From Octopus vulgaris (taxonomy: Eukaryota), in the NCBI GenBank assembly GCA_951406725.2, contig OX597824.1, forward strand, positions 6,076,001 to 6,140,000: a stretch of DNA of 64,000 nt, in the 5' to 3' direction. The notes beneath the pieces were generated by a model, which did no database searches, was not told the origin of the DNA, and worked only from the letters and a program-made list of their open reading frames with translations. This document shows, piece after piece, positions 8,377 through 62,102 of this stretch. Position 1 is the first letter of the stretch. Each line of letters opens with the position of its first letter. The position numbers were made by a program, and so were the translations under genes.

Positions 8377-9627
8377 GGTGCGTGTGTGTATACATAGATG
8401 CATACGCACACATATGTATATGTGTATGCATGAATCTATGAGTGTGTGTGTGAGTGCGTGCGCACGTGCGTACGTGTGTGTGTGTGCGTGCAGTTGCGTG
8501 TATATATGTGTTACCTAGAGCAAAATGCTTTATAAAATTTGGTAAGTATTAATATTGAATAAGCCATACACGCCCGCATGCTGAAGTGTTTCTTCTACAC
8601 ACGTTCCTTTATTCTAGTAGATGGATCATAAATTCCTGCGTTACCGTATGAATCCTCACACCAGATGAAGTAGTAATTTTGTCTTGGTTTTCAATGTGTG
8701 ATTTCTAAATATACTGTAGCTGAAATTATCATTTATTTATTCGTTTATAGAATTCATCATAAATAAATACCAGTAATAAGCGGCTGTCGATATAATACGT
8801 ATATAATCTTCCCTTACGAATGTGTCTAAATGCCTCTATTTCTGTCAGGAAATATCTTAGCAAGGGAATTTTGTAAATTTTATAAAAAATTGATTTATTC
8901 TCTCTTGAGGTTTATATCCAGTCTTTGGGAATGTTATTGGAAAATAGATGTACTATTAAAGCAAATACCAGTATTCTTAAACTAAACATATTTTGATCAG
9001 TCTTTTATCTCTCACGCACTTATATCTCTTTCAATTCGCAGTTTCCATTTCAAACTATAAACTACATACTCGTGTCATAACAAAGAGGATGGAATGAAAT
9101 AATAGTGAAGAAAAAGGAGAAGACAAAGGAAGACCAATAGCCAATATATTGTTAAGTAGCAGAAAAGTACACACCATTGTGTTTTTAAATGGGTGAGCGC
9201 AAATAAATTGCAGAATGCTTTCGAAAGCTTAAAAGGTATAATTTCCGCCATTATGAAAGTAAGGGCGCAAGGTGAGACAATGGTAACACATTTTACCACT
9301 TGATGCTGTGAAAAATTCAGAAATTCATTTACGACACACACAATCACGAACGCACGCACACACACACACGCACACACAGACACACACATACACACACACA
9401 CACATATATATGTATATATGCATATATTTGTATATTATATAAGCGTATAAATATACATACACACACATATGTATATATATATATATATACAGTGTACATT
9501 TAAACACACAAGAGACATCTATCATAGGACTCCTTGCACGCCGCTAGAGACGACAGTGAAATTCCAAACCACTATTAGGGATAAAATTTCGAAGGGAATG
9601 AAAAATAAAAACATGTACCATCTAATT

Positions 9628-9693
9628 CCTGGACCAATGGTTTCAGACTTTTTTATCAAATAAAATGAATTGCTAGAAGTCTTCTTCAGCAGG
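9628..9693 (-). ncRNA. Type I hammerhead ribozyme, canonical core
   Basis: Minus strand: cctg CTGAAGA agactt..aagtct GAAA ccattgg TC cagg. Helix I 4 bp, helix II 6 bp, palindromic helix III, GUC cleavage triplet. Confidence 0.88.
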
Positions 9694-10288
9694 TACACCT
9701 TAGATTAAATATATATATACAGGAGGCAATCCAGTATATGACCCGTGCTTATACATTCTAATTTTTCAAATCTACTGCGCAAGCGCAGCTTATTGTCGGC
9801 ATTATATTTATATGCCGGCTTTTCACTTCGAAAATTATCCAGAGAACAAATTATCAATAATTAATAATATCAAAGCGTAATTAGTAATATTTGAAATTTC
9901 CATTACAAGTGGCCTAGCGTGTAAGAATTTAGTCAATAGACTATATATTATTCATATAAATACAGTGTACATTTAAACATATAAGAGGTATCCACCATAG
10001 GACTCATTTAAATGTACACTGTATTTATATGAATAATATATAGTCTATTGACTAAACTTTTACAAGCTAGGCCACTGGTAATGGAAATTTCTAATATTTC
10101 TGATTACCCTTTGATATTATTAATTATTTGAAATTTTTTCTCTGCATAATTTTCTCATTGAAAAGCCGGCATATTTATATATCACCGACAAGGAGCTGCG
10201 CTTCTGCGGTAGATTTGAAAAATCAGAATGTTTAAACACGGGTCATATACTGGATTGCCTCGTGTGTATATATTTAATCTAAGGTGTA

Positions 10289-10360
10289 CCTGCTGAAGAA
10301 GACTTCGCCTAACAAATTATATTATTTGCTAAAAAAAACTTCTGAAACCATTGGTCTAGG
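10289..10360 (+). ncRNA. Type I hammerhead ribozyme (inverted partner of 9628-9693)
   Basis: cctg CTGAAGA aga..tct GAAA ccattgg TC tagg. Helix II is partly decayed. Confidence 0.8.
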
Positions 10361-10597
10361 AGTTAGATGGTAAATGCTTTTATTTTTCATTCCCTTCGAA
10401 ATTTTATCCCTAACAGTGGTTTGGCATTTAACTGTTCTCTCTAGCGTGCAAGGAGTCTTATGATGGATGTCTCTTATGTGTTTAAACGTACACTATATCT
10501 ATATGAATAATATATACTCTATTGACTAAATTTTTACAAGGTAGGCCACTGGCAATGGAAATTTCTAATTTTTTTATTACACTTTGATATTATTAAT

Positions 10598-10687
<90 letters not shown>

Positions 10688-11593: not shown

Positions 11594-12870
11594 CAGTTGC
11601 GACCAAAATGTTCAGAACGGCATTGTTTTCGTCAGAAGAGTAAGTATAATTTTTTATCACAGTTGTTTTATATTCTATAATTCTCACAGACAATAAATAC
11701 AATATTTATTGTTATTGTCTGAGATTTTGGTGTAATTTGAGAGGATAATAGAAAAATTATGGATGATTTAGTGATTTACTGCAAAACCCATGGCGGCCAA
11801 AATTATCAGAACGGTCGAAAAAATAAGAAAATAATCAAAAATGCCAGAGAATACTGGAATTATTTAATATTTAGTGTGAAGCCCTTTAGCTTCAATCATA
11901 CTTTGACATCTTCGACTGCATGAGGAAATTATATTTTTAATTTCTTGCTGGGTGATCTTATTTTATCGTTCCTGAAGAGCATTCCATAGATGCTCGGTTG
12001 TTTTAGGATTTCTGGCTTTCGCACCGTCTCCTAGAATATTCCACACATTTGCAATAGGATTGAGATCTGGGCTGTGAGCAGGCCAATCCATAACAATAAC
12101 CTTTTCAGCCTTAAGGAAGTTCATGACCACCTTAGCCTTGTGACATGGGGCATTGTCCTGCATGAACATGGGTGGTCGCTTACTTGAATTTCTCAGCACA
12201 GGAAAGACAAGTTGTTTATAAACTCCTTCATTTAACTTTCCATGTAATCGCACCAAAGGGCCCACACCATCTCCAGATATCATCCCCCAAACCATGGCAC
12301 TTCCTCCACTGAATGTAACACTAGTCTTAAGGCATTTAAGCGACAATCTTTCATCTAGTTTTCGACAAACTGAGTCAAATAACATAAACTTAGATTCATC
12401 ACTGAAATGCATCGTTTGCGTTTTTTCTTGTGACCACAACACATGTTCGGTTGCAAAGGTAAGACGACACTTTTTATTCTTGGAGCTGATTAGTGGCTTC
12501 ACTGCCGGTGCTCTTGGTCATGTTCAACTAAACGACGAGACACAGTTTTTCGAGATAAAGTTTTCTTCAGTGCAATGCTCATTTCCCGAGAAACAGCAGC
12601 AGCAGTTTTAAATCTGTCCTTTTTAACCAACTTTACCATAGCACGATCTTCTCTGTTGGTCGTTTTTCTTGGCCTACCTGTAAACTTTCTTGCTTCACAC
12701 GAACTACAATCATCGTAGACCTTAAGAATACCGTGAACAACACTTTTTGACTTGTTAAAAATATTTGCAATAGACCCAATACTTAAATTATCCTTCTTTC
12801 GATGCTTAATAATCTGCTGACGAATTGGTAACGGAGTGAGTGGCATTATATTAGCAAAGTACACTGTTGT
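11594..12870 (-). mobile_element. Tc1-like DNA transposon of IR/DR type, one end missing
   Basis: TA|cagttgcgaccaaaatgttcagaacgg terminus at 11594 with an inner direct repeat tggcggccaaaattatcagaacgg at 11791. No matching TIR is seen beyond 12870. Confidence 0.85.
11864..12846 (-). pseudogene. Tc1 DD34E transposase pseudogene
   Basis: Paired-like HTH and GRPRKTT motif (ORF 12499-12864); FSDESKF, GGSAMVWG, FMQDNAPCH and WPAHSPDLNPIANVW (catalytic E changed to A); frameshift near 12500, premature stop near 11963, native end GLHTKY*. Confidence 0.92.
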
Positions 12871-13432
12871 TTCAATATTTCCTGACAGCTTTGTCTAGAA
12901 GCACATGCATTTTAAAGTCGATACTTTCCCGAAAGATAATGACCCGACTGAAGCCAGAAAGTAGTCACATCACGAAATTTCATGTGGTCGAAAAATTAGC
13001 AAAGTGTATCCGAAAGTTTATCGAAAAACAAAGAGACTTGCGTGACCCAAAGAGGGTTCTACAAGAAGTACCAACCAAAAAGCGTTCAAATCATATCCTT
13101 GTGACATTAATATTTGCAGAACGACATAACGGACTGAGTACAGAGCAATAAGCAAAGGTTTTCGTTTTGATAAAACGGGATGGGCATGACTGTGATACTT
13201 TGCTCATCTGTCCGTTCAGCTAGCCTTGGGCTGAGGAGGAGCAGCGGCGGTGACAGAGGCCGCAACAGCAGCGACATGATTATCGGCAAGTATACGTCTA
13301 TTTGGTAGATGTGATGCGCAGAACTGGGTCAGCATCGTCTTCGCAATATAATTTGTTTTTCTAGTTCCAGCTCAGAGCTGCAGCCATGCTGTTGCACCGC
13401 CGTTTTATTTATTAAATTTTTTTTTTTATTCT

Positions 13433-28304: not shown

Positions 28305-28306
<2 letters not shown>

Positions 28307-28401
28307 ACTTCAACCGTGTTTTTTCTGTTGTGATTTTTGCTACCCAGGTATCGGTTAAATTTTGAATAATCCTTAACAAGATAATTCATTTATCCATTTC
28401 A

Positions 28402-28472
<71 letters not shown>

Positions 28473-28490
28473 TGTATGTATATATATATG

Positions 28491-28537
<47 letters not shown>

Positions 28538-28634
28538 TGAAATGGATAAATGAATTATCTTGTTAAGGATTATTCAAAATTTAACCGATACCTGGGTAGC
28601 AAAAATCACAACAGAAAAAACACGGTTGAAGTTA
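28305..28634. repeat. 104-bp perfect inverted duplication flanking a (TA)n/(TATG)n tract
   Basis: 28305-28408 is the exact reverse complement of 28531-28634. The same repeat family occurs at 2275-2337 and 59824-60000. Confidence 0.92.
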
Positions 28635-28929
28635 CGACCTTGGGGTGTCGCAACCGTGCCTTAGCGCGGATAATTGAAGTTTAATATATTTAGTGAAGGG
28701 AAGAAATGGAGCTGAACGAAGATTCTACAGAATTCCTTTTATTATTTTCTACACATGTTTCAAAGGCCGCAAATTTCCAAATTCGGACTGAATAAGGAGA
28801 CCATTTTGCAGCTTTCTCTTCAGGAAAATCCAGGAATTTAAAACTCCAAAACAAATGCGCAGCAAGGTATTCGAACAAAACGCTCCTTAGGAGCCCATGA
28901 AATAGCACAAAACTGTATATGTATATATA

Positions 28930-29105
28930 CATATTAAAAATATCGTGTACATTAAAGCACATTATGAAGTTTGCATCATAGGAAAACCTTGCGCTAGAAA
29001 GAGCAGTAAGCAACTCAAACCACTAATTATGGATAAATTCTCATAGGGAATGAAAATTAAAAACATTTACCTTCTATTTTAGTTCCTAGATCATGTTTTC
29101 TGACT
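28930..29105 (-). mobile_element. Decayed 3' portion of family H2
   Basis: ccttgcgctagaaagagcagt...caaaccactaattatggataaattc...agggaatgaaaattaaaaacatttacc...tcctagatcatg aligns to 9530-9645. Confidence 0.65.
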
Positions 29106-29119
29106 AATTTCAATATATA

Positions 29120-33130: not shown

Positions 33131-33384
33131 TAATATCTATACCTATATATATACGATGTATATATATTTCTTGCTGGATCGCTGGTAGCGGAGAATTTTT
33201 TGTAGAATTTTTTGCTACCCTTATATTTATTAATTAATGATTTTTTACTAATTTTGAAATTAAATCAGCAGTTTATATTTGCTGCTGAGAAGACCGCACG
33301 ATTGCGGTAGATTTTGAAAATTTATAGCATATAGACTGGAGGCTTCCTTACCATCGCCTCGTGGATATATACTCGTCCTTGGCT

Positions 33385-33479
33385 TCTCTGCTGACGAGGC
33401 ACGCCAGTTGTAAATAAATTTAATTTAATTTAATTCATTTATTTACCAAAGTTTGCCGAAACTATGCATAGTCCAGAGA
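33385..33479 (+). ncRNA. Type I hammerhead ribozyme, fully canonical
   Basis: tctctg CTGACGA ggca..tgcc GAAA ctatgcatag TC cagaga. Helix I 6 bp, helix II 4 bp plus an AU-rich extension, 10-nt palindromic helix III; predicted cleavage after C33473. Confidence 0.92.
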
Positions 33480-33982
33480 TGAAAGGGGTAAACGTTTTTA
33501 TTTCTCTTTCAATTTCAGAATTACAACTTTTAGCGGTTTGAATTTGGCTGCTCTTTCTAGTGAGTCGAATGTCCTATTATGGCCATTCCTTATATTTTTT
33601 AATATACAATATATATATATATATATATATAGTATAGTTTTCATATGGTCATTCTATCGAACAAATCAAGTCTCTGCAAAGAATATCGTTACAGCAATTC
33701 CTGAAAAGTGTAAGAGTCAAGGCTGAGGCTGATAGCGATCCATGACCAAAGCTTGGCCAGGGAAAACCTATAATCTGTATCTGCAGAATATATTAAGTTT
33801 AAAACGTAACAATTTCAACTCCCTTGCCTTTCGCCGCCCAGTCTTAACCAGAAGTGAAGACGTAGACAAAAGTGAAGGCATAGGCAACCAGATTAGATAG
33901 AACTTAGGCATTGAAACGCTGGAAATTGAGCTATATTTTATTGCAAACAGAGAAGAGGTGGTTCAATCATATACTTCTACTA

Positions 33983-52994: not shown

Positions 52995-53053
52995 TACCGT
53001 ATTGGTCCAATTTCGGGGTTAATTCACAATAAATTTCCCCCTCTTCAGCGGCA
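52995..53053 (-). ncRNA. Type I hammerhead, canonical core, in a ~285-bp element (52877-53162)
   Basis: Minus strand: tgccg CTGAAGA gggg..cccc GAAA ttggaccaa TA cggta. Helix I 5 bp, helix II 4 G-C pairs, palindromic helix III, AUA site. Confidence 0.88.
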
Positions 53054-60847: not shown

Positions 60848-62102
60848 TCAGGTCATCCTATAAGTTCTGTCCGAATTTTGAACAAAGAAAACAAGTGACC
60901 AAATGTTATATTTAACTGAAATTTAATCATCAATGTACTTTCCCTGATTATCTATGACTTCCTTCCATCTATTTACAAGCTTTTTAATCCCATCACTGTA
61001 AAACTCTTTTGGTTTCAAAGCGAAGAACTCTGAAATGTCAGTTTCGACCTCCTCCTGGCTTGCGAAAGTTACGTCCCCCAAATGATTCTGTAAACTACGA
61101 AACAAATGGTAGTCTGAAGGAGCAAGGTTGGGAGAATATGGTGGATGAGGAATTCTTTTCCCAACCAAGCTCTTCAATCTTCTGTGACGTGATCTTTGTA
61201 ATGTGGCGTCACGCACTTACTGATGAAACATCACTCCTTTTCGATTCATTAAAGCGGATCTTTTTTTCTTCAAAGTTTGGTTCAAACAACGCTCTAATTG
61301 CTGACAGCTGACTTGAGTATTGATTTTTGCATTAGGTGGTAGCAATTCAAAGTGAATTACTCCGTTGCAATCCCACCAGATAGAGGGAAGGATCTTTTTC
61401 CTATGAAGTTCCCTTCTAGGTTGTGGTTGAGCTTTTTCCCTTTTACCAAGCTATTATTTACGACGTTTAATATTTCGATAGAAGATCCATTTTTCGTCAC
61501 CAGTCACAAGCGTATCTAGAAAAGGTGAAATGAGTTAGTGAAAATGGAGAGAAGAACAGATGTGAATTCGGGATTTGCGGTTGCTTTCAGACAATTCATG
61601 AGGCACCCATTTTCCAAGTTTAGGAACCTTTCCAAGTTGTTGAAGATGACGATGAATAGTTGTATCATTTGTACTAAGCTTTATTGCCAATTCCTCAACT
61701 GATAATGTAGTATTTTCTTCAAGTAATGTATCAAGGAGCTTATCATCAAACTCAACTGGACGTCCTTTTCGATTTTTGCAAACTGAATTTTGCAAACCAT
61801 CTTTTGCATGTTCTTTCATTCAAGTTTTCTTTCCTATAAACTGAGTGTATGTTTCAAGTCACTTCAGCTGCAGAGTTTCCTTTTTTGTAGTCATAAAGCA
61901 TTATGTGCCTCAAATACTCTTTGGATACTTCCAAATCAACGAAATTTTAATTCTATTATTCTGTAAAATAATATTTAATTAGTTTAAATGTACACAAATG
62001 CATAAAAATAATTTTTAATACCATTAGACATTCTAAAATACTATTAAATTTCCTTCAATTTTAATAAAGGTAAAATCGGACAGAACTTATAGAATGACCT
62101 GA
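60848..62102 (-). mobile_element. Near full-length mariner transposon (1255 bp)
   Basis: TIRs tcaggtcatcctataagttctgtccga / tcggacagaacttatagaatgacctga; TA at 62103, and the left TA is mutated to CA. Confidence 0.93.
60923..61934 (-). pseudogene. mariner (DD34D-type) transposase pseudogene
   Basis: EYLRHIMLYDYKKG, GKWVPHEL, VTGDEKWI and HPPYSPNLAPSDYHLFRSLQN; start decayed to TTG; several stops and frameshifts. Confidence 0.93.

What the first reader, a model, noticed from the sequence alone, without database searches (positions are those of the whole stretch)
9488..10599. 1.1-kb inverted dimer of 473-bp ribozyme monomers with terminal redundancy
Each arm is slightly more than one unit of a 473/474-bp repeat (about 45 bp extra on the left, 120 bp on the right). 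The arms join head-to-head at 10005/6, each carries one HHR pointing outward, and each ends in (TA)n. Permuted, more-than-unit-length copies are expected from reverse transcription of a circular or multimeric RNA, and an inverted 5' copy is typical of PLE insertions. A transcript across the locus would also form ~480 bp of imperfect dsRNA, a possible ADAR substrate.
Basis: partly seen in the sequence, partly recalled or inferred. Interest (0 to 1): 0.8.

Follow-up and report, generated by a model that had tools for sequence, protein, structure and literature searches.

The report
Mirror-pair Penelope mini-element with hammerheads
This 1.1-kb mirror-image pair is one aged copy of an abundant 470-base non-coding repeat with a predicted self-cutting hammerhead RNA motif, likely pasted into a TA microsatellite by a Penelope-type retrotransposon enzyme; it is a known kind of element, though its two mirror arms almost always end at two different fixed points, which hints at how that enzyme works.

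Summary
Observation confirmed. Two head-to-head arms (about 520 and 594 nt) of a 473/474-nt unit each carry an outward type I hammerhead motif (0 of 1000 shuffles) and end in (TA)n. The unit is a dispersed family: 104 exact 27-mer hits genome-wide, copies about 6% from the majority. In 109 loci 5' ends vary, 3' ends fall at two sites about 100 nt apart, and 48 loci are head-to-head pairs. This is the published Penelope-like (PLE) footprint (partial tandem, inverted 5' copy, tail at one end) on a non-coding retrozyme unit. The scan has noted such elements before, in this genome and others.

Most useful result: in pairs with both ends intact, one arm is short and the other tailed in 23 of 24 cases, and in 32 of 33 in a sister family. 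In about half, neither arm is contained in the other, which favours two separate priming events.

Not shown: self-cleavage, a circular RNA, transcription or editing of this locus, or the helper. Hydra-like PLEs with the same end layout exist here but share no detectable sequence with the unit.

The parts
9488..10005 (-). Left arm: 5'-truncated partial unit (~30 nt) + full 473-nt unit + ~17 nt; ends at the short 3' site (site A, no tail)
10007..10600 (+). Right arm: full 474-nt unit (10007-10480) + 121 nt; ends at the long 3' site (site B, with tail)
9620..9705 (-). Type I hammerhead motif, left arm; core at 9689, predicted cleavage after 9632; stems I, II, III intact
   Evidence: outer stem I read from the sequence
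10277..10368 (+). Type I hammerhead motif, right arm; core at 10293, predicted cleavage after 10356; stem II weakened, G-U in stem I
   Evidence: outer stem I read from the sequence
10498..10600 (+). ~100-nt tail between 3' site A and 3' site B, present on the right arm's end only
10004..10008 (.). Head-to-head junction of the two 5' ends (about 2 nt of overlap)
9471..9489 (.). Left (TA)n target tract
10598..10683 (.). Right (TA)n target tract

Best explanation
The locus is one aged copy of a dispersed, non-coding 470-nt repeat family with a predicted hammerhead ribozyme (a miniature Penelope-like element, or non-LTR retrozyme), likely inserted in a single event into a (TA)n tract by a borrowed Penelope-type reverse transcriptase-endonuclease. 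Shown: family, copy structure, two fixed 3' ends, variable 5' ends, (TA)n flanks, the short/tailed pairing and the shared subfamily alleles of paired arms. Inferred: the helper nicks both strands of the TA tract. Each target end primes its own cDNA on the element RNA, one at site A and one at site B. The cDNAs run past the unit junction because the template is repeated (multimer, circle or template jump; not resolved), and their truncated ends are joined head-to-head. Hydra-clade PLEs are the likeliest helpers (inferred from end layout only). The locus itself is likely inert.
For: Family: 2429 first-look candidates and 104 exact 27-mer matches with control 0; mean divergence 6.2% over 154 arms. 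Of 171 arms in 109 loci, 77 end at site A and 46 at site B (53 with a wider window); 5' ends are spread over the unit. 48 of 109 loci are head-to-head and none tail-to-tail. Intact pairs are A+B in 18 of 19 (p=4e-5), or 23 of 24 with the wider window; 32 of 33 in the sister family (p=4e-9); 2 of 2 in Hydra-like PLE loci. Neither arm is contained in the other in 12 of 23 and 15 of 32 pairs. Paired arms share non-majority alleles at 14.7 per 1000 sites against 4.6 for unpaired arms. The same layout is described for PLEs in PMC8557442 and PMC3846280. Two RT start sites and extension of both strands in vitro are reported in PMC11167929.
Against: No helper shares sequence with the unit: a profile search of 38 GIY-YIG/Neptune-like loci and 50 Hydra-like loci found only neighbouring mini-elements. 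The tail is ~100 nt, against 30-40 nt in described PLEs. No target-site duplication can be read inside (TA)n. 24 of 48 pairs (family 1) and 19 of 52 (family 2) had a damaged 3' end and were left out of the A/B count. The wider B window was chosen after seeing the data. Rfam does not recognise the hammerhead, and the MFE fold is not the hammerhead fold.
Confidence: 0.8

Rival explanations
1. The template is specifically a hammerhead-generated 470-nt circular RNA, copied by rolling-circle reverse transcription.
For: Arms pass through one or two cleavage sites and exceed unit length (15 of 119 arms in the pattern-picked subset, up to 909 nt). Tandem units of one arm share subfamily alleles (16.8 vs 5.7 per 1000), and no first-unit/second-unit diagnostic variant exists (best p 0.009 in 379 tests). 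Circles are shown for mussel, coral and axolotl retrozymes (PMC7229834).
Against: The same data fit a homogeneous linear tandem or template jumps. In the longest sister-family insertion (L224, about five units) some units are identical while others differ by up to 17 of 381 sites, which one circle would not give unless changed later. Hammerhead cleavage was dispensable for insertion in vitro (PMC11167929). Eight of nine retrozyme dimers did not cleave in vitro (10.64898/2026.07.22.740005).
Confidence: 0.35
2. The unit is only the terminal repeat (pLTR) of a longer autonomous PLE, and the locus is a truncated stump.
For: Opposite-strand hammerhead pairs 100-700 bp apart were ascribed to truncated PLEs (PMC4209133). 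My searches score only the best candidates, so rare ORF-bearing copies could be missed.
Against: The unit's 3' end runs straight into its own start with no ORF between, in 53 of 171 arms. Of 67 free 5' flanks only one pair shares sequence, at unlike unit positions. The filtered stop-free frames of 130+ codons upstream of 336 arms were unrelated repeats, and the one Hydra-like endonuclease belonged to a separate element ending at its own 3' site.
Confidence: 0.07
3. The mirror arm arises by self-priming or fold-back copying of a single cDNA or antisense template (the self-priming model of PMC3846280), or by two independent insertions into the same TA tract.
For: A few pairs have both 5' ends at nearly the same unit position (for example L075, L186, L191). 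Self-priming was proposed for head-to-head PLE junctions.
Against: In 27 of 55 A+B pairs neither arm lies within the other, so one cannot be a fold-back copy of the other. Independent insertions would not give A+B in 55 of 57 pairs, no tail-to-tail pairs, no TA at the junction, or shared subfamily alleles.
Confidence: 0.1
4. The locus matters to the host as a ~480-bp dsRNA and ADAR substrate.
For: 475 base pairs in the predicted fold of the region.
Against: The arms diverge from each other about as much as unrelated copies (10.3% vs 10.1%), so there is no sign of selection on pairing. I recognised no host exon among the window's frames of 90+ codons, though a long intron is not excluded.
Confidence: 0.05

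Closest known systems
Metazoan non-LTR retrozymes (Cervera and de la Pena 2020, PMC7229834; Li, Clavereau and Pollet 2026, 10.64898/2026.07.22.740005)
   Same: Short, AT-rich, non-coding unit with one type I hammerhead; dispersed monomers and partial tandems; proposed to be non-autonomous PLE derivatives.
   Different: Unit of 470 nt (mussel 350-390). Mostly under two units per arm, with frequent head-to-head pairs. Expression, cleavage and circles are untested here. No matching pLTR was found, whereas 24 of 57 Xenopus families matched known elements.
Insertions of endonuclease-bearing Penelope-like elements (Arkhipova et al. 2013, PMC3846280; Craig et al. 2021, PMC8557442)
   Same: 5' truncation, partial tandem, inverted 5' copy in head-to-head orientation, tail on one of the two inverted ends, (TA)n targets, hammerhead near the 3' end.
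   Different: No ORF; the whole element is pLTR-sized; tail ~100 nt rather than 30-40 nt.
Hydra-clade PLEs (Craig et al. 2021)
   Same: Canonical type I hammerhead shortly before the 3' end and (TA)n targeting. Elements with the clade's DKT and CxCx5C motifs occur in this genome and show the same two 3' ends.
   Different: They encode RT and endonuclease. Their terminal repeats share no detectable sequence with the unit. Clade assignment is by motif only, with no tree built.
Poseidon element of Anolis (Frangieh et al. 2024, PMC11167929)
   Same: Two internal RT start sites bounding the tail; AT-rich target; both strands cut and extended; predicted dimer.
   Different: That work compares start sites in bulk; it does not report, in the sections I read, that the two ends of one insertion use different sites.

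Membership tests
Non-LTR retrozyme | Type I hammerhead motif in the unit | tested here: met
   Own descriptor, 0 of 1000 shuffles; all three stems change in compensating fashion in the sister family. Not recognised by Rfam.
Non-LTR retrozyme | Short, low-GC, non-coding repeat unit in many copies | tested here: met
   470-474 nt; GC 0.29 in the central part; no stop-free frame of 90+ codons within 9488-10599; 104 exact motif matches.
Non-LTR retrozyme | Two consecutive same-strand units, each with a complete hammerhead ('active' in Li et al. 2026) | tested here: not met
   This locus has one motif per arm on opposite strands. Met by other family loci such as L014, L016, L029.
Non-LTR retrozyme | Self-cleavage in vitro | not testable with these tools
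   MFE folds do not give the hammerhead shape; the right stem II is damaged.
Non-LTR retrozyme | Expressed as linear and circular monomer RNA | not testable with these tools
   Only contigs of runs guessed to be RNA were available.
Non-LTR retrozyme | Absence of LTR, PBS and PPT | not tested
   No primer-binding-site search was run.
PLE-mobilised element | Variable 5' truncation with fixed 3' ends | tested here: met
   123 of 171 arms end at two sites; 5' ends spread.
PLE-mobilised element | Partial tandem and inverted 5' copy | tested here: met
   48 of 109 loci head-to-head, 0 tail-to-tail; 32 of 74 in the pattern-picked subset.
PLE-mobilised element | Tail on one end only | tested here: met
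   23 of 24 and 32 of 33 intact pairs; tail ~100 nt.
PLE-mobilised element | Insertion in AT-rich or (TA)n targets | tested here: met
   Microsatellite after 42 of 46 B ends, 52 of 77 A ends and 8 of 48 other ends.
PLE-mobilised element | Target-site duplication | tested here: inconclusive
   Both flanks are (TA)n; no duplication can be read.
PLE-mobilised element | Sequence similarity to the terminal repeat of an autonomous PLE | tested here: not met
   None in 38 GIY-YIG/Neptune-like and 50 Hydra-like loci; the sample of helpers is partial.
Autonomous PLE | RT plus GIY-YIG ORF | tested here: not met
   No ORF in or linked to the unit.

The most novel reading that the evidence does not exclude
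Each head-to-head insertion is the footprint of an obligately asymmetric double-priming reaction: a dimeric Penelope enzyme cuts both strands and primes one target end at start site A and the other at start site B, never the same site twice. The A+B rule (55 of 57 pairs in two families) would then be a genome-scale readout of the unresolved PLE integration step, and a 470-nt unit would be a minimal substrate to test it.
Probability: 0.5. Interest if true: 0.55.

Novelty: new member of a known kind. Interest (0 to 1): 0.3.

Why it matters
The element is ordinary for its class. Its value is as a clean data set on PLE integration, whose tandem and inverted products are still unexplained. The tail on one inverted end has been described qualitatively; here it is counted, replicated in a second family and combined with a containment argument against fold-back copying. 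This predicts what single products of the existing in vitro PLE system should look like. It also adds PLE footprints to the case that animal retrozymes are moved by PLE enzymes.

Tried and rejected
Rfam: no hammerhead family; only hairpin-driven miRNA-family noise.

5' ends at the hammerhead cut site: 7 of 16 arms at risk ended just 3' of the upstream site against a background of 26 of 147 (window chosen after the fact), and two arms start at the cut (L026, L077). The sister family did not repeat this, so it is inconclusive.

Fixed linear dimer master: no register-specific variants.

Helper search: the young 781-codon RT/GIY-YIG family and Hydra-like families share no sequence with the unit. 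The L114 adjacency is an insertion at the end of a Hydra-like copy.

Expression: no RNA holder listed among 24 runs. Contigs of 4 runs guessed to be RNA, laid on 9495-10595 only, carried family variants rather than this locus, and none spanned it. No A-to-G cluster can be assigned without matching DNA. Flank junctions were not examined.

A cross-family MAFFT alignment of hammerheads was out of register and was discarded. Pfam did not recognise the Hydra-like ORFs. A sequence look-up in earlier scan findings returned nothing.

Full report
1. Observation. The description is accurate. Taking 10007-10480 as the unit, the right arm is a full unit plus 121 nt. The left arm, on the minus strand, is unit positions ~444-474, a full 473-nt unit and ~17 nt that merge into (TA)n. 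The 5' ends meet at 10005/6 with about 2 nt of overlap. The arms differ at 48 of 465 columns. Each has a type I hammerhead motif: CUGAAGA core, 4-bp stem II, GAAA, short near-palindromic stem III, GUC triplet and stem I. An outer 6-bp extension of stem I is visible in the sequence. My descriptor matched 0 of 1000 shuffled units. The sister family at 33391 changes all three stems while keeping the pairing. Against activity: Rfam finds nothing, the right stem II is damaged, and MFE folds are not the hammerhead.

2. Family. The genome (2.8 Gb; likely an octopus according to earlier scan notes, not tested here) gave 2429 first-look candidates, 40 scored, and 104 exact matches to a 27-mer with 0 for the control. 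I analysed 109 distinct loci: 35 from the similarity search and 74 picked by the motif alone; six duplicate fetches were dropped and 4 unlisted motif matches were not seen. The majority unit is 470 nt and the mean divergence 6.2%. Of 171 arms, 77 end at site A (unit 10-45, blurred by TA) and 46 at site B (105-125; 53 with the window widened to 135). 5' ends are spread across the unit. Microsatellite follows 52 of 77 A ends, 42 of 46 B ends and 8 of 48 other ends (a different pattern gives lower counts with the same trend). Head-to-head pairs occur in 48 of 109 loci and tail-to-tail in none. Both arms exceed unit length in 3 of 109 loci and 0 of 74 motif-picked ones, so the focal locus is a long example, not a unique one.

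3. Not the stump of a longer element. The unit runs into itself without an ORF in 53 of 171 arms (15 of 119 in the motif-picked set). Among 67 free 5' flanks one pair shares sequence, at unlike unit positions. Upstream frames of 336 arms were unrelated repeats.

4. The A+B rule. In pairs with both 3' ends intact, one arm is short and the other tailed in 18 of 19 (p=4e-5) or 23 of 24 with the wider window; 24 of 48 pairs had a damaged end and were not counted. The sister family (101 loci, 165 arms, nine duplicates dropped) gave 32 of 33 (p=4e-9; 19 of 52 pairs not countable). Motif-picked subsets gave 15 of 16 and 16 of 17. The short arm lies left in 12 of 23 and 20 of 32 pairs. Neither arm is contained in the other in 12 of 23 and 15 of 32 pairs; by the lengths the focal locus is one of these. 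Paired arms share non-majority alleles three times more often than unpaired ones. I infer one event with two separately primed cDNAs.

5. Template shape. Tandem units in one arm share subfamily alleles (16.8 vs 5.7 per 1000 sites), and no register-specific variant appears in 379 tests. This fits a circle, a homogeneous multimer or template jumps. L224, the longest sister-family insertion, has heterogeneous units, which argues mildly against one circle, but later conversion or duplication blurs it. A 5'-end excess at the upstream cut site in the focal family (7 of 16 vs 26 of 147, window chosen afterwards) was not repeated in the sister family. The question stays open.

6. Helper. A young 781-codon RT/GIY-YIG family and several older ones exist, as do elements with Hydra-clade motifs. 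The Hydra-like elements carry type I hammerheads about 100 nt before a short 3' end, have a longer tailed end, and show A+B in 2 of 2 head-to-head loci. None shares sequence with the unit in profile searches of 38 and 50 loci. Hydra-like helpers are thus a likely guess, not a result.

7. RNA. The available runs could not test expression or editing of this locus (see Tried and rejected). The arms are as diverged from each other as unrelated copies (10.3% vs 10.1%), so there is no sign that pairing is maintained.

8. Literature seen. 10.64898/2026.07.22.740005: abstract to discussion, parts 1-3 of 5. PMC11167929: main text and part of the methods, parts 1-2 of 4. PMC8557442: passages and the Hydra section. 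PMC3846280, PMC4209133, PMC7229834, PMC13282606: passages; the last has no occurrence of 'ribozyme' in its main text. PMC3846280 states that the tail is optionally present on one of the inverted pLTRs and that head-to-head is the usual arrangement, so the layout is in print. In five searches I saw no count of the A+B pairing and no description of this family. Supplements, repeat libraries and subscription journals were not seen and may hold either.

9. Verdict. A new member of a known kind; the scan has noted similar elements several times. Interest 0.3. The double-priming reading has probability 0.5 and interest 0.55 if true.

Noticed in passing
window 33150-33612 (+): Copy of a younger sister family (468-nt unit, mean divergence 3.7%, 114 exact 30-mer matches) with a hammerhead at 33391 and the same two 3' ends; used as a replicate.
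   Followed up: yes
sister-family loci L194-L263: 5' ends cluster in the tail region of the upstream unit: 19 of 24 arms at risk end there, against 8 of 15 in the focal family. Could be a transcription start region or an RT stall; unexplained.
   Followed up: partly
L224:1368-4327: Sister-family insertion of about five units (a 3.3-unit arm interrupted by two other repeats, plus an 828-nt arm). Some units are identical, others differ by up to 4.5%.
   Followed up: partly
window 28933-29112 (-) and 28750-28823 (-): 3' part of another relative of the unit (E 9e-22) next to a hammerhead of a different family.
   Followed up: no
window 28305-28634: 156-nt inverted repeat, 96% complementary, with a TA tract in the middle.
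   Followed up: no
window 53000-53048 (-): A further type I hammerhead motif; a near-identical one lies in L042.
   Followed up: no
L061-L068: Young PLE family with a 781-codon RT/GIY-YIG frame (16 of 148 listed matches) and an upstream frame of up to 479 codons; Neptune-like by motifs, label from recall and PMC8557442.
   Followed up: partly
L294:1431-3254, L295:2072-4600: Hydra-like PLE frames with long asparagine-rich inserts, like those described in rotifer Penelope ORFs in PMC3846280.
   Followed up: no
L114:358-2190: A family copy joined directly, with no TA tract, to the short 3' end of a Hydra-like PLE.
   Followed up: partly
L034:415-1020 (-): Another hammerhead mini-element with terminal redundancy, period about 450 nt.
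   Followed up: no
window 11963-12894 and 60923-61819: Fragments that read like Tc1/mariner transposases (label from recall).
   Followed up: no
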